Source of the DNA: Eledone cirrhosa
Lineage: Eukaryota
Length of the DNA: 64,000 nt
NCBI GenBank assembly: GCA_964016885.1
Contig: OZ024741.1
Coordinates: forward strand, 176,390,001-176,454,000
Direction of reading: 5' to 3'
Shown here one piece after another: positions 521-52,368 of the stretch; the stretch's first letter is position 1, and every line of letters begins with the position of its first letter. The notes beneath the pieces are model-generated. The model saw nothing but the letters and a program-made list of their open reading frames with translations. It was not told the origin of the DNA and searched no databases. A program made the position numbers and the translations under genes.

Positions 521-998
521 TAATACTTTGGGAGGTTCATGGTGCTAATTAAAATACACGCGCCTGTTAGTTTTCATTTCAATTTATTATAAATTTCTGG
601 TTGGTTCGTTAACCAGATGGTTGTTTATATATTGTCAAAGCTCTTTCGTCACACGTTCTGTGCCCTTCTTAGTGACTCACTTTTTATTTTGCGTCTCGCC
701 TTTGTGCTGTCCTACACAAAAACACACAATGGTGTAGGACAGAAAAAAGGAGACACAGAAAATATAAACCCAGTCATTGAGGAGGTCACAGATTGTGTGA
801 CGAAAGAGCTTTGAAAATACATTAACAACCATCCCGTTATCGAACCAAACAACCAACCGGAAATTTATAATAAATTGTAATGAAAACAACAGGTGCGTGC
901 GTTTTTATTGGCATCATGAATCTCCCAAAGTATATCGTTATCTGTTTCAGCACACGTTTTCAGATAGAAAATCTTGCAAAACAAATTCAAAAACGAAT
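521..998 (+). mobile_element. Old fold-back PLE 3'-end relic (same family as 14187-15417 and 32395-34205)
   Basis: Left arm (tactttgggagg...) is the diverged reverse complement of the right arm. The right arm alone carries the family tail (tgtttcagcacacg...caaattcaaaaacgaa) before (TA)n. Decayed HHR at about 772-812. Confidence 0.75.
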
Positions 999-2060
999 TA
1001 TATATATATATATATATATATATATATATATATATATATATATATATATATATATAACCACTGCCTTCTTCATAGGTTAGTATTAATATTTCCAATATAG
1101 ATTGCCCTATTATTATTTCATTAAATTACATCAGCAGCTGTCATTTATGTCATTTCTTTCTAAAATACAATGAGTGGTGATGGTGAGCTATCATTACGCT
1201 ACTTTAACTCAAATATTCCATTGTTTATTTCTGTTTTGGTTTTGTATACATCGGAATATTTTGCATTTTCATAAATATTAAATTATTGAAGCTACTATTG
1301 TAAAAGTGTTGATATTCATTGATTTATTTTAAATCTTATATTTAAAAAATATTTTTGTATCATTTTTGTAGTTATATAGGTATACATTTTCGTTCAGATA
1401 TAAAATTTTGTTTTTGTTTTGGCCGTCTATTAAAGAGTTCTAGTCTATTTACAAAGAATTTATATAATAAACATTTCATTTCTTGCAGCCATAAAAAACG
1501 ATATTTAAAAAACGATTTTTAATATCATATTTCCTATGATATTAAATTAAAAAAAGATATATCTACAGACATATATACATACATACATGCATATGTATAT
1601 ACATCATATATATATATATATATATATATATATTCATGCCGATTGTTAGAATTTTTCCTGAAGTCGTCATCGATATTGATTTTTCTTCCATCATTCATGA
1701 ACATCATGTTAAATGTAAGAACCCCATAGTTTCTCCAAGATATCCATTATTTTTCTATTCATGTGTGTTTATGTTTATGTGTATGTGAATGTGCATTTTA
1801 CACACGCGTGTGGGTGTTTTTGTGGGCGACTGCGTCTATTGATGTGTGAAAAATATTTGAATGAGTATCTAATGGTTGCATGTTTATAGAGGTTGTATAT
1901 GAACCAGTTTGTGTGCGTACTTATCTATCTATCTATCTATCTATCTATCTATCTATCTATCTATCTATCTATCTATCTATCTATCTACCTCTCTCTTTCT
2001 TCCCCCCCCCCTCTCTCTCTCTATATATATATATATATATATATATATATATATATATAT

Positions 2061-3951
2061 TCTACCCTCTCTGAAGCCGTTCTGGTTGTCGCTGAGCCTC
2101 TTCTCCATCTCAGGCTGGATCCTGTTAAGAATCATCCTGTTGAGGGTCTTTGCTACAAGTGACGTCAGTGAGATACCCCGGTAGTTGTTGGTGTTAGAGA
2201 GATTTCCCTTCTTTGGCACTGGGAAGATGTTACTGATCCTCCACTGATTCGGGGCAACTCCTTTCTCCAGTGCCCGGTTACAGAACCCCAGGATGATATC
2301 ATAAAAATCACACCTCTTCATCACCTCTGATGCCACTCCATCTTCTCCATGAGCCCTTCCCTCCTTGATCCTCTTCTTGGCTCTCTGAAGCTCCTCTCTG
2401 GTGAAGGGCTCTGTCTCAATATCCAGTTCCTCAAACAGCCGCCTGATCTCCCCAGTGCTCTGCGCTGTGGAGGGTGATTCTCCAAGTAGGGTCCTAAAAT
2501 GGTCTAGCCATTTCCTCTTCCTTTCCTCGGCCCCGTTCCCTGGATCTGACTCGAACACCGTCTCTTCCTCCCTGGGATCTCATTGATGATCATCCAGCTC
2601 TCCTTACATCCAGATCTGTCAACTGCTCTCTCCATACTTCTGATCTTCTCTAGCAGTGCCTCCTCTCTGGCCTCAGTGTAAGCGGTACAGAGTTGTTCCC
2701 TCATCACCTCCACAGTCTCCATCCTCTCCTCCGTAGGATCAGCATGGAATTGGTCCTTGGCAGCTTTAAGGTGTTCTCTGGCTGCACACATATCCTGATG
2801 CCGAGGAGGATATTAGAGGGAGCTAGAGCAAAGTGCCTTCCTGCGGTCATGGTTTTCATTGACTTTAGGAAGGCATTTGATTCTGTGGACCGTCACTGCC
2901 TGATGAAGATCTTACAGGCTTATGGAATCCCCAAGAAGATAGTGGACCTGATATCACTGCTCTACACCAACACCAAAGCCCAAATCATTACACCTGATGG
3001 GATGACAGAGTTCTTTCAGATACTGGCTGGAGTGCTCCAGGGAGATACGTTGGCCCCCTAACTTTTTATCATCGTAGTGGACTATTGTATGCGCCTTGCA
3101 CTGGAGAAACACAAGGACTCTGGCTTTACTGTAGCACCGGCTCAGAGCAGGAGAGTTAAGGCGAAAAAGGTATCAGATGCTGAATTTGCCGACGACATAG
3201 TTTTGGTGACAAATACAGTGAAGGAGGCAGAGGATTTGATGCAAGAGGTTGAGACTGTGTCGATGAGTGTGGGGCTGAGAATGAATGAGACTAAAACAAA
3301 CTATCTGGTAGAGAATGTTGAGAAGCCGGAGGGGATCGCTAATGTAGCGGGAAGCCGCTAGAATTGGTTGAGGGCTTCCTGTATTTGGGAGCAAAGATTG
3401 GGAATACAGAGAATGATGTGGTTGAGAGGAAGAGCAAAGCCTGGGCGGCGTGCCACAGCTTGAGATCAGTGTGGAAGTCGGACCTTCGTAAATACCTAAA
3501 GATCCGGCTCTTCATTGCTGTAGTGGAGTCTGTGCTGCTGTACGGGTCCGAGACTTGGACACTGACCAAGAAACTCACTCAGATGGTGGATGGGTGCTAC
3601 ACGAGAATGCTGAGGATGGCTCTGAACATTAATCAGTATACACGGAGGATGAAAAACTCAAAGTTGTATGGGAGCCTCCCAAAAGTCAGCTCAAAAGTGA
3701 CACAGAGGAGACTGAGGTTAGCTGGACATGCTCACCGACATCCAGAGTTGACATTGCACTCAGTGCTCCTGTGGGAGCCCTACATGGACACACTGGAAGT
3801 GGAAGACCAAGGTTAACGTATGTTGATGCCCTAAGGACAGACACTGGTCTGTTGGAGACGCAGGACATGGCAGCGATAATGAGGGACAGAGACCGCTGGA
3901 GAGAACTCGTCCATGGATCTCGGGAATTTTACCCGCCTTAGATAGATAGAT
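2061..3951 (+). mobile_element. RTE-like non-LTR retrotransposon, 5'-truncated with 5' inversion; pseudogenised ORF2
   Basis: Minus part 2061-2790 encodes the pre-RT region (W..HF..LL, PVPKKGNLSNTNNYRGISLTS, NQNGFREGR). Plus part from about 2789 continues with FIDFRKAFDSV, GVLQGDTLAP, FADDIVL, YLG, LLYGSETW, LRLAGH. It has stops and frameshifts and a (TAGA)n 3' tail. Confidence 0.9.
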
Positions 3952-4289
3952 ATATTGTAGTGTTGCTAATGTGAAGCATTGTGATATATGTAGTAAACGA
4001 CCGATACATAAAAAAAAACCCGGTACACTGCAGTAGAAAATTACGAAGGCCAAATGACAAATAAAACAAAACAAAACAAAATAATGTTTTACCAGTGTAT
4101 TTTAGCATGATATATCAGGACCCTGACCCCGCTTTTCAAAGTTTTCAGAGATTTCGTCCTTAACGCTTTGCAAAACACATGCGCCTGTGCGGGACTAATA
4201 AAGATGGTTACTGTAATGATCCTGCATATATATATATATATATATATATATATATATATATATATATATATATATATATATAAATATAT

Positions 4290-4691
4290 CCGGGAGAGAT
4301 GACCCCTTAGCGTTTGTCAAGGCAGAATTTTAGGAGAAGGAAAACTCTAATATAACACCTGCAGTCCTGCTGGTATCCAATGATGTTGACGTGTTCTTCG
4401 TTTTGGTAAATATCATCTTGGTTAAGAGAGTGGGACTGGCTTTGTGCAGTGCCTTTGCTCACTATAAAAGCTTCACGACACAGGCATTGCTTTCTATCTG
4501 GAGATCTCTCTAGACTTATCGTCACATGGTACCATGGACCCAGCACTATGTGTCAATCATTGTCACAAGTGTACCAGAGTTTTCAAGTCGCAGGCTGGAC
4601 TAAAAAGTCACACTCGTTCAGCGCATCGGTAGGTTGTCTCCTACATGGATATAAAGTAGTGGCCGTACTCGAAAACGAGTTGGCAGCCACC
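4290..4691. repeat. Dispersed ~400-bp non-coding repeat, copy 1
   Basis: Near-identical to 46646-47056. Both copies end at ttggcagccacc followed by (AT)n. Contains ggagaaggaaaactct, reminiscent of RTE-type 5' UTRs. Confidence 0.8.
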
Positions 4692-51614: not shown

Positions 51615-51674
51615 ATATATATATATATATATATATATATATATATATATATATATATATATATATATATATAT

Positions 51675-51976
51675 GAATGTATATATAGTGTATTTTGCAA
51701 TACACTGTATGCTTAATTAAAAGCATTTCGAAGACCTTATGCTATTGTTTTAGAGTAGTGACAGTCTCACTTACTTTAAATTTTCAGCAAATAGGGGAGA
51801 TAAAGCCGACAGAGCTATGTTTCGTACTGATTGGTACCTATCAAAGCCAAGTACTCCTCCTGTTTGCTGAAAATCATGAATGTTTGATTCTTATAGAATT
51901 TCAGTTCCTGATTATTACTAGAAATTCTATAAGAATCAAACATTCATGATTTTCAGCAAACGGCTTTATCTCCCCT
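51675..51976 (-). mobile_element. Family B copy with 5' fold-back and decayed HHR (about 51801-51850)
   Basis: Homologous to 44321-44652; GGCU-UUGAUAG-GUAC CAAUCA GUAC-GAAA..UGUC-GGCU; hairpin 51862-51961. Confidence 0.7.
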
Positions 51977-52270
51977 GAAATACCAGTGTCTTGGAATTTA
52001 GCCCCCGCTTGCCCTCTTCCATCCACTGAATATTTTTGTATAAGTTCCCTGGGTCCGCGCATCGCCAGGTATCTTAGCTGAGAATGATTCCCTAATGACG
52101 AAAAGGCTTCTCCATGATCTCCATTTGGAGACTATGTATATTCCCTTTCAGAAACTAATTAGTTGGAGTGAAATTTAATTAAGTAAGCTAATTACTATAA
52201 TTTTCTTATTTTACGTTTTTCATATATATATATATATATATATATATATATATATATATATATATATATA

Positions 52271-52368
52271 TATTGTTATACTTTGGGAGGGTCATGTTGC
52301 CAATAACAATATCGGTTTCAACGCACGTTTTCAGATTAAGAATCTTGCTAAACAAATTCAGAAACGAA
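52271..52368 (+). mobile_element. Minimal PLE footprint: ~35-nt inverted arm + tail
   Basis: tattgttatactttgggagggtcatgttgccaat joined to aacaatatcggtttcaac...ttcagaaacgaa; TA flanks. Confidence 0.8.

What the first reader, a model, noticed from the sequence alone, without database searches (positions are those of the whole stretch)
521..52368. One integration grammar across many unrelated families: inverted arm ends at a fixed internal site, tail on one side only, (TA)n target
Seen in about 15 insertions (521, 8755, 9589, 14187, 15503, 16803, 17066, 29143, 32395, 36305, 40464, 46046, 47127, 50589, 52271). One arm keeps a family-specific 35-90-nt 3' tail. The opposite arm always stops at the same internal, usually TA-like site (e.g. 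aa(g/a)tataacaata, ttaccaatatata, gttccta), with microhomology to the flank. Either arm can be the long one: 32395 has only the tail on one side and 1.75 kb on the other, and 52271 is about 100 bp in total. Known: inverted pLTRs with a short tail are described for PLEs. Inference: two independent priming events per insertion, one at the RNA 3' end and one at a defined internal site, with the cDNAs joined at their 3' ends; the endonuclease prefers (TA)n.
Basis: partly seen in the sequence, partly recalled or inferred. Interest (0 to 1): 0.75.

Follow-up and report, generated by a model that had tools for sequence, protein, structure and literature searches.

The report
Penelope-like retroelement insertion signature, TA repeats
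This stretch of animal DNA is crowded with Penelope-like jumping genes that sit in TA repeats as back-to-back mirror copies, one end carrying a short extra tail and the other stopping at one fixed spot; this is a known hallmark of the class and likely arises because both cut DNA ends start copying the element's RNA at two set places.

Summary
All 15 listed insertions have one tail-bearing end and one tail-less end. 14 of the 15 lie in (TA)n on both sides.

I sampled four families in the window's own 3-Gb genome, 30 loci each, chosen with internal queries that are blind to the end point.
- 116 of 119 scored arms end either at the family's fixed internal site or at the full tail end.
- 107 of those 116 abut (TA)n.
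- Of 49 head-to-head pairs, 47 are tail plus no-tail, 2 are tail plus tail, and none is no-tail plus no-tail.

The elements are endonuclease-positive Penelope-like elements (RT plus C-terminal GIY-YIG), together with non-coding passengers.

The layout is published: an inverted 5'-truncated copy, a tail on one side only, and AT-rich or (TA)n targets.

Three points support two RNA-templated syntheses over a fold-back copy:
- Either arm can be the longer one.
- Some arm pairs do not overlap at all.
- In one family, 10 of 14 tail-less ends carry an expanded (CT)3-13 run, against 0 of 15 tail-bearing arms. This is a slippage mark of initiation.

Empty sites could not be examined. Other follow-ups of this scan reached the same reading on other pieces of this genome. 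Verdict: a known kind, well documented here, of modest interest.

The parts
521..997 (+). Old family A insertion. Tail-less inverted arm starts at 521/522, after a T-run and (TA)n. The + arm reaches the site near 934. Tail about 935-997, then (TA)n 1000-1056.
   Evidence: sequence; I17 (arms 598-717/732-851, 81%)
8754..9542 (-). Family E insertion. Tail 8754-8825 (about 72 nt) on the left. Tail-less right end at 9542. (TA)n on both sides. Hammerhead-like core at 8862-8885 and 9483-9506.
   Evidence: I6 (199-nt arms, 94%)
9589..14010 (-). Young family A2 insertion. Tail 9589-9644. Arms 9644-11542 and 12113-14011 are 100% complementary. Tail-less end at 14010. RT/EN reading frames at 10154-12172 (-) and 11951-13501 (+).
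   Evidence: (I1)
14188..15417 (-). Family A1 insertion. Tail 14188-14243 (56 nt). Tail arm reaches -627 and tail-less arm -498. Tail-less end at 15417.
   Evidence: L001
15503..16143 (+). Family F insertion. Tail-less end at 15503 next to (TA)n. Arms 15503-15713 and 15892-16102. Tail from 16103, at least 41 nt, not followed by (TA)n. Hammerhead-like core at 15845-15870 in the central loop.
   Evidence: (I5)
16802..16987 (+). Small family C-like hairpin. Tail-less end at 16802. Arms of about 41 nt. Site near 16909. Tail 16910-16987, then (TA)n.
17044..17064 (.). Extra (GA)n, which reads as (CT)n on the element's strand, between (TA)n and the tail-less arm of family B. Read as a slippage product of initiation at the internal start.
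17065..20677 (+). Family B element. Inverted tail-less arm 17065-17170. RT plus C-terminal GIY-YIG frame at 17161-19380. Site at 20637. Tail 20638-20677 (40 nt). (TA)n from 20678.
   Evidence: (I13); at least 40 other copies 100% identical over the stretches searched
29144..29502 (-). Family A2 insertion. Tail 29144-29199. Tail-less end at 29502.
32396..34205 (+). Family A1 insertion. The left arm is the inverted tail alone (32396-32452). The right arm 32453-34205 (1.75 kb) ends at the site. The two arms do not overlap.
36305..40393 (-). Family D element. Tail 36305-36337 (33 nt). RT frame at 37925-39223 (-). Inverted tail-less arm ends at 40393.
   Evidence: (I2)
36190..36232 (+). 3' end of a further family D copy, with the site at 36199 and tail 36200-36232, abutting (TA)n.
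40465..40669 (-). Family C mini-hairpin. Tail 40465-40543 (79 nt). Tail-less end at 40669.
46046..46239 (-). Family A1 insertion. Tail 46046-46101. The tail-less end at about 46236-46239 is about 6 nt short of the usual site.
46472..46554 (+). Family C tail alone. It begins at the internal site and has (TA)n on both sides.
47128..47329 (+). Family G mini-hairpin. Tail-less end at 47128. Site at 47259. Tail 47260-47329 (70 nt).
50589..51614 (+). Family C insertion. Tail-less end at 50589. Site at 51535. Tail 51536-51614.
   Evidence: (I3)
52271..52368 (+). 98-bp family A1 insertion. Inverted tail-less arm of about 35 nt, plus a tail arm of the tail (52312-52368) and about 6 nt.
29739..30420 (-). 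Family F partial head-to-tail tandem (pLTR type). Its tail abuts (TA)n at 29739.

Best explanation
These are insertions of endonuclease-positive Penelope-like retrotransposons and of non-coding RNAs that they likely mobilise, sitting in (TA)n microsatellites. Each insertion was likely built by two target-primed reverse transcriptions, one from each DNA end of the cut target. The two syntheses start at two fixed template positions 33-79 nt apart.

Shown directly:
- RT and GIY-YIG coding capacity.
- Head-to-head inverted arms whose outer ends are 3' ends.
- Two sharp 3' end points per family.
- One of each end type in nearly every pair.
- (TA)n on the flanks.

Inferred:
- One DNA 3' end primes at the downstream start and gives the arm with the tail.
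- The other DNA 3' end primes at the upstream TA-like start, helped by 1-7 nt of pairing with the (TA)n primer, and gives the tail-less arm.
- Both cDNAs run towards the RNA 5' end and stop at independent points or at the 5' end of a short template.
- Their 3' ends are then joined and filled in, which gives the inverted repeat.
- Slippage on the CUCU next to the family B internal start adds the variable (CT)n.
For: Identity of the elements:
- RVT_1 is found in 8 frames and GIY-YIG in 2.
- A cysteine linker of the C...CxxC type followed by GIY...YIG motifs can be read.

Two sharp ends:
- 116 of 119 scored arms in 4 families end at the site or the tail end.
- 50 of 50 ends in a second family A sample do the same.

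Coupling of the two end types: 47 of 49 pairs are mixed.

Two RNA-templated syntheses rather than one copy of the other:
- Either arm can be the longer.
- Some arms do not overlap (L046, L028, L026, L017).
- Single tail-less arms and single tail arms both exist on their own.

The internal site is a start, not a cut: (CT)3-13 in 10 of 14 tail-less family B ends, against (CT)2 in 15 of 15 tail-bearing arms.

Published support:
- A purified PLE protein cuts and extends both strands and starts RT at two adjacent sites whose interval is the tail (PMC11167929).
- The layout is described in PMC8557442 and PMC3846280.
Against: - No RNA, read or biochemical evidence was obtained here. All steps after 'two end points' are inferred from the finished insertions.
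- The strict coupling (47 of 49) is not explained by two independent choices of start site. It needs an extra assumption, such as a dimeric particle, one RNA used twice, or ordered events.
- 2 tail/tail pairs (L085, L144) and 3 odd end points exist.
- The cited in vitro work reports start sites without homology to the cut DNA, whereas here the tail-less ends are TA-like.
- Samples are the 30 best-scoring loci per family, so they are young copies.
- Many family A and D pairs are symmetric (arms ending near -250, -161 or -206). A fold-back would also give this. I read it as a shared template 5' end, because single arms end there too.
Confidence: 0.68

Rival explanations
1. Fold-back (self-priming). 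One cDNA is made from the tail end. Its 3' end snaps back and copies itself, and the copy stops short of the tail.
For: - Self-priming was proposed for PLEs from palindromes at the inverted junction (PMC3846280, passages).
- Many pairs here are symmetric or nearly so: 7 of 22 in family A and 7 of 13 mixed pairs in family D are equal within 10 nt.
- The arms of young copies are identical (I1, I5).
Against: - A copy cannot be longer than its template. Yet the tail-less arm is the longer one in 9 of 22 family A pairs and in 3 of 13 mixed family D pairs.
- 32396-34205 and 52271-52368 have arms that share at most about 6 nt.
- The model gives no reason for a stop at one fixed base, or for (CT)n expansion at that base.
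Confidence: 0.12
2. Endonuclease resolution. A symmetric tail/tail intermediate forms first. The element's GIY-YIG nuclease then cuts one arm at the internal site and removes one tail.
For: [quoted passage not shown]
- PMC11167929 recounts that the D. virilis EN needed the tail sequence for recognition and cleavage.
- Rare tail/tail pairs exist here (L085, L144) and could be unresolved intermediates.
- The internal sites are TA-like, matching the AT-rich cleavage preference.
Against: - The variable (CT)n run found only at tail-less ends of family B points to polymerase slippage, not cutting.
- Tail-less single arms with no partner are common.
- In vitro, the two positions were mapped as RT starts.
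Confidence: 0.12
3. The small hairpin elements are cut-and-paste DNA transposons (MITEs) with terminal inverted repeats and TA target duplications.
For: Short inverted-repeat units flanked by TA (16802, 40465, 47128) look like MITEs at first sight.
Against: - The ends are asymmetric, with a 70-79-nt tail on one side only.
- Arm lengths and loops differ from copy to copy.
- Coding PLE families A, B and D show the same end grammar.
- No transposase frame was found among the 11 largest frames scanned.
Confidence: 0.02
4. The inverted duplications are assembly artefacts, or fold-back repair at fragile (TA)n tracts unrelated to retrotransposition.
For: Long (TA)n tracts and palindromes are hard to assemble. 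PMC8557442 notes that PLE structures trouble assemblies.
Against: - The same fixed end points recur at more than 100 loci on many contigs.
- Arm identity ranges from 81% to 100%, which means different ages.
- Artefacts would not respect a family-specific base.
Confidence: 0.02

Closest known systems
Insertion architecture of EN+ Penelope-like elements (Evgen'ev and Arkhipova 2005 and Arkhipova 2006, known to me only as cited; Arkhipova et al. 2013, PMC3846280; Craig et al. 2021, PMC8557442)
   Same: 5'-truncated copies, an inverted 5'-truncated copy at the 5' end, a short extension (tail) on one side only that can be at either side, AT-rich or (TA)n targets, and partial tandems (seen here for family F).
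   Different: - Tails here are 33-79 nt, against the 30-40 bp quoted.
- In the copies read here the inverted layout is common and I saw one direct tandem copy (family F). I did not count layouts systematically.
- No Rfam-level hammerhead was found in families A-D.
Two internal RT start sites of the Anolis Poseidon element PAc in vitro (Frangieh et al. 2024, PMC11167929)
   Same: Two discrete starts whose interval is the tail, an AT-rich cut site, and both DNA strands used, which would give head-to-head arms.
   Different: - That study reports starts without homology to the cut DNA. Here the tail-less ends carry 1-7 nt of TA-like identity with the flank.
- One family here shows dinucleotide slippage at the start.
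- This is genomic evidence only.
Twin priming of human LINE-1 (Ostertag and Kazazian 2001, recalled; the term is found in 99 papers, listing only)
   Same: The second DNA end primes internally on the template, and the two cDNAs are joined to give an inverted 5' part.
   Different: - L1 inversions partition one RNA without duplication, and their internal priming point varies.
- Here the start is fixed and most arm pairs duplicate the same 3' region.
- Only a minority (32396, 52271, L046, L028, L026, L017) partition the template as L1 does.
Slippage at initiation in LINEs with 3' microsatellite tails, and repeat addition by telomerase (established knowledge, recalled)
   Same: Reiterated copying of a short template motif right at the start of synthesis, seen here as (CT)3-13 in family B.
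   Different: Here it occurs at the internal start of a PLE and only on the tail-less side. I found no paper describing this for PLEs in one search (7 papers, listing only).
Animal non-LTR retrozymes and other non-autonomous PLE derivatives (bioRxiv 10.64898/2026.07.22.740005, passages)
   Same: Non-coding families (C, E, F, G) carry the PLE end grammar. E and F hold hammerhead-like cores.
   Different: Families C and G show no hammerhead core in my pattern scan. They are mostly head-to-head mini-hairpins, not tandem arrays.

Membership tests
EN+ Penelope-like elements (canonical, C-terminal endonuclease) | Reverse transcriptase domain | tested here: met
   Pfam RVT_1 in frames 17161-19380, 10154-12172, 11951-13501, 37925-39223, 40902-42011, 32352-32996 and 1977-2579. 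This is the generic RT model only. No PLE-specific phylogeny was made.
EN+ Penelope-like elements (canonical, C-terminal endonuclease) | GIY-YIG endonuclease C-terminal to the RT | tested here: met
   Pfam GIY-YIG E = 8.7e-7 in the last 149 aa of the family B frame and E = 7.7e-7 in 40902-42011. The family A2 C-terminus gave no Pfam hit, but it aligns over the motif with family B.
EN+ Penelope-like elements (canonical, C-terminal endonuclease) | Inverted 5'-truncated copy and/or pseudo-LTR tandem | tested here: met
   49 head-to-head pairs. Tandem family F copy at 29739-30420. No direct repeat in the family B copy apart from an internal microsatellite.
EN+ Penelope-like elements (canonical, C-terminal endonuclease) | Tail extension on one side of the insertion only | tested here: met
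   47 of 49 pairs. 15 of 15 window sites.
EN+ Penelope-like elements (canonical, C-terminal endonuclease) | Hammerhead ribozyme motif in the pLTR | tested here: inconclusive
   - Rfam gave 0 matches at gathering score.
- There was no ribozyme among the 150 listed of 158 matches at E <= 1.
- A core pattern scan gave 7 matches against 0.53 expected: two in family E, three in family F-like copies (15845, 30029, 43979), one at 44346 and one at 61085, the last two unassigned.
- Family F gave a sub-threshold HH9 match of 16 bits against a cut-off of 52.
- Family E gave none.
Neptune/Nematis-type PLEs (clade assignment) | Extra cysteine linker (CX2-5CxxC) upstream of GIY-YIG, as described in PMC8557442 | tested here: inconclusive
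   Cysteine clusters of this type can be read just upstream of the GIY-YIG core in P0001 and P0002. No tree against reference clades was made, so the clade is not assigned.
PAc-type two-start reverse transcription (PMC11167929) | Two discrete cDNA start positions whose interval equals the tail | tested here: met
   End points are bimodal in 4 families: 57 at the site, 59 at the tail end and 3 elsewhere, of 119 scored.
PAc-type two-start reverse transcription (PMC11167929) | Both target strands cleaved and extended | not testable with these tools
   Inferred only, from the head-to-head arms with 3' ends facing outward.
PAc-type two-start reverse transcription (PMC11167929) | Start site not homologous to the cut DNA | tested here: not met
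   Tail-less ends finish in TA-like bases shared with the (TA)n flank, 1-7 nt by eye. Tail ends mostly do not.
LINE-1 twin priming | The two arms partition one template, so the inverted part is not a duplicate | tested here: not met
   Most pairs duplicate the same 3' region. Only a minority partition it (32396, 52271, L046, L028, L026, L017).
TIR DNA transposons / MITEs | Symmetric terminal inverted repeats with a fixed target duplication | tested here: not met
   A one-sided tail of 33-79 nt, and arm lengths and loops that vary between copies. A target duplication cannot be read inside (TA)n.

The most novel reading that the evidence does not exclude
One template RNA serves both DNA ends in a fixed order. 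The internal TA-like start fires first. The second DNA end then primes at the tail end. It either stalls where the first cDNA began, which gives arms made of the tail alone or little more, or it displaces the first cDNA and gives the full inverted repeat. This would explain the near-obligate pairing of one tail with one tail-less end (47 of 49). The telomerase-related RT also stutters at the internal start, so these elements seed new dinucleotide repeats such as the (CT)3-13 of family B, and possibly add to the (TA)n tracts that they then target.
Probability: 0.15. Interest if true: 0.6.

Novelty: new member of a known kind. Interest (0 to 1): 0.35.

Why it matters
How Penelope-like elements integrate is still only partly worked out. 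The one in vitro study (2024) leaves open the steps after the two reverse-transcription starts.

This genome holds families so young that 40 or more copies are 100% identical over the stretches searched. Their finished insertions therefore record the reaction cleanly:
- two exact start points in each of the four sampled families (A-D);
- a near-obligate pairing of one tail with one tail-less end;
- arms that can partition or duplicate the template;
- a slippage mark at one start.

These numbers constrain models. They argue against a simple fold-back and call for coupling between the two DNA ends. They also name concrete substrates for biochemistry: the family B protein and its last 330 nt.

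For annotation, the finding warns that the very abundant TA-flanked mini-hairpins are retroelement products, not MITEs.

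Tried and rejected
Empty-site test with reads.
- The look-up of sequencing runs listed 3 runs of one sample holding about 0.6 of the words, and no RNA holder.
- The second, on 50000-53000, laid only short contigs dominated by repeats. 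There was no cover over 52222-52423 and no contig bridging an insertion site. The listed joints near 50631-50648/51475-51486 fit the family C mini-hairpins elsewhere in the genome. So the reads say nothing about empty alleles.

Empty-site test with possible haplotigs. Flanks of insertions on two small contigs found only themselves or nothing.

Is (TA)n made by the RT on one side? TA-tract length next to tail-less and tail ends in 42 pairs had medians of 45 and 40 nt (Wilcoxon p = 0.60). There is no asymmetry, so no support for one-sided synthesis of (TA)n.

RNA structure at the starts. Folding the 3' ends of 7 copies gave z-scores from +0.60 to -2.30. Only family E was below -2. No shared structure was found.

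tRNA-like origin of the tails of families C and G. ARAGORN found 0 genes.

Master-hairpin model for the recurrent family D pairs. Arm-to-arm mismatch counts are star-like and do not separate the models. The varying junctions and the single arms ending at the same 5' point argue for formation anew at each insertion.

Excess of tail arms stopping at the site.
- 5 of 31 family A pairs have a tail arm ending within about 35 nt of the site.
- The comparison is biased, because tail-less arms shorter than 25 nt escape BLAST.
- A tail-selected family C sample gave 1 of 30.
- I did not use this as evidence.

Coordinates.

Full report
WHAT THE WINDOW IS

The window is bases 176,390,001-176,454,000 of contig C2 of a 3.0-Gb eukaryotic assembly. 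The largest reading frames carry reverse transcriptase. Two also carry a GIY-YIG nuclease C-terminal to it: frames 17161-19380 and 40902-42011. The translations show a cysteine cluster just upstream of the GIY...YIG core. These are endonuclease-positive Penelope-like elements (PLEs) with a C-terminal nuclease.

The RTs of families B and D are 57% identical. Family A is 20-26% identical to both. So at least two deep PLE lineages are present. Families C, E, F and G hold no large frame in these copies.

CHECK OF THE OBSERVATION IN THE WINDOW

I read all 15 sites on the sequence, with the inverted-repeat lists. In all 15, two arms lie head to head with their 3' ends outward. One outer end carries a family-specific extension. 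The other stops at the position where that extension would begin.

Tails measure 33 nt (D), 40 (B), 56-57 (A), 70 (G), about 72 (E), 78-79 (C) and at least 41 (F). Fourteen of the 15 insertions have (TA)n on both sides. The tail side of 15503 does not.

The tail-less ends finish in TA-like bases shared with the flank. Examples are ...AACAATA in family A, ...GTTCCTA in family C and ...ATATATA in family D.

Two family A copies (521 and 46046) stop 6-7 nt earlier than the rest. At 521 a T-run lies between the arm and (TA)n. At 17044-17064, 21 extra bases of (GA)n lie there.

32396-32452 is the inverted tail alone, joined to a 1.75-kb arm that ends at the site. 52271-52368 is 98 bp, with arms that share about 6 nt.

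DO THE END POINTS SCATTER IN LARGER SAMPLES?

They do not. For families A, C, B and D I searched the own genome with stretches lying upstream of the site, so the hits were not chosen by their end points. I then aligned the 30 returned loci per family to a reference arm plus tail (summary).

- Of 120 selected arms, 57 end at the site and 59 at the complete tail end. 3 end elsewhere (L045, L066, L075) and 1 could not be scored.
- An earlier family A sample gave 50 ends: 23 with the complete tail, 27 running straight into TA-repeat-like sequence, and none ending inside the tail.
- Flanks begin with (TA)>=3 in 107 of the 116 regular ends, while (TA)n tracts make up 3.9% of the window.
- Among 49 distinct head-to-head pairs, 47 combine one tail with one tail-less end. 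2 are tail/tail (L085, L144) and none is tail-less on both sides. If the ends were independent, about half would be mixed.

The loci are the best-scoring 30 of 146-1228 candidates, so they over-represent young copies.

WHAT DISTINGUISHES THE MODELS

First, a fold-back copy cannot exceed its template. Yet the tail-less arm is the longer one in 9 of 22 family A pairs, the tail arm in 6, and they are equal within 10 nt in 7. A tail-less cDNA cannot give rise to a tail either. So neither arm is simply a copy of the other.

Second, several insertions have arms that hardly overlap: 32396, 52271, L046, L028, L026 and L017.

Third, single arms of both kinds occur alone, flush with (TA)n at their 5' ends. 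Each start can therefore work by itself.

Fourth, family B gives a direct mark of synthesis at the internal site. Between the arm and (TA)n, tail-less ends carry (CT)2, the templated number, in 4 arms and (CT)3-13 in 10 of 14. All 15 tail-bearing arms have exactly (CT)2 at that place. Reiterated copying of a dinucleotide right at a start is what polymerase slippage gives. A nuclease cut would not give it.

The symmetric pairs of families A and D (arms ending near -250, -161 or -206) are best read as two full-length copies of short templates, because single arms end at the same points. An arm-to-arm mismatch table could not separate this from a propagating hairpin. The differing junctions and loops speak for formation anew at each insertion.

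COMPARISON WITH WHAT IS KNOWN

The layout is in print.
- Passages of Craig et al. 2021 (PMC8557442) describe 5' truncation, an inverted 5'-truncated copy at the 5' end, a 30-40-bp tail often present at only one end and at either end, and a (TA)n bias for Naiads. They relate a microsatellite bias of Neptune elements to the cysteine linker.
- Arkhipova et al. 2013 (PMC3846280, passages) describe the tail as optional at the 3' end of one inverted pLTR. They mention simple AT-rich targets and propose self-priming.
- A curation guide lists the same peculiarities (PMC8969392, passages).
- Frangieh et al. 2024 (PMC11167929, main text read) purified an Anolis PLE protein. It cleaves and extends both strands of an AT-rich target. 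It starts reverse transcription at two adjacent internal sites, and the tail corresponds to the sequence between them.

Four things differ here:
- The tails are longer.
- The tail-less starts share TA-like bases with the target, whereas the paper stresses a lack of homology.
- One family shows slippage at the start. One search found no PLE paper describing this (listing of 7 papers only).
- No hammerhead reaches Rfam's threshold.

A core-pattern scan does find hammerhead-like cores in families E and F: 7 matches against 0.53 expected, plus a sub-threshold HH9 match. In family E the predicted cleavage point, worked out by eye, lies about 28 nt upstream of the internal site. So ribozyme cleavage does not define the tail-less end there.

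The closest analogue outside PLEs is LINE-1 twin priming (recalled; term search). That mechanism partitions one RNA and has no fixed internal start.

WHAT STAYS OPEN

- Empty alleles could not be examined. Reads were uninformative and no haplotigs were found.
- Whether the tail end is the RNA 3' end is unknown.
- The cause of the one-tail rule is unknown. TA-tract lengths do not differ between the two sides, so nothing suggests one-sided synthesis of (TA)n.
- No shared RNA fold marks the starts.

Other follow-ups of this scan on other pieces of the same genome reached the same reading. They are not independent evidence.

VERDICT

The elements are new members of a known kind. The coupling figures and the (CT)n slippage mark are small additions that make the mechanism more testable.

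Noticed in passing
window 8862-8885 (-), 9483-9506 (+), 15845-15870 (+), 30029-30054 (-), 43979-44004 (-), 44346-44370 (-), 61085-61125 (+): Hammerhead-like cores (CUGANGA, a short hairpin, then GAAAC). There are 7 matches against 0.53 expected by chance. They lie in families E and F and in further copies. Rfam gives only a sub-threshold HH9 match for family F.
   Followed up: partly
window 17166-17400 and 20440-20600; G000 hits: Family B is extremely young. All 40 scored matches are 100% identical over 235 and 161 nt, out of 545 and 776 candidates.
   Followed up: partly
window 19600-20300: The 3' untranslated part of the family B element holds a 700-nt compound (TG)n/(TA)n microsatellite. 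It swamped my first alignment.
   Followed up: no
window 46555-47057 and 4283-4330: Another repeat, with no RT hit in my scans, also lies between (TA)n tracts. Its two copies share a stretch of about 40 nt. I did not identify its family.
   Followed up: no
L066 (G000:C4:78407797-78410877), around locus position 1443: A family C tail breaks off at +23 and is joined directly to internal family A sequence. This is either a nested insertion or a template switch between two element RNAs.
   Followed up: no
L015, L019/L036, L048 (three G000 loci): A family A tail is followed by the same non-(TA)n flank in three separate loci. This suggests insertion into, or co-mobilisation with, another repeat.
   Followed up: no
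window 51863-51958: A near-perfect hairpin of about 40-nt arms with no link to the PLE families. It drew only weak microRNA-model matches.
   Followed up: no
L055 (G000:C13:38844994-38848137), 5' junction: A single tail-less family A arm carries a short inverted copy, about 16 nt, of its own 5' end before (TA)n. This is a small fold-back, so snap-back does occur at some 5' junctions.
   Followed up: no
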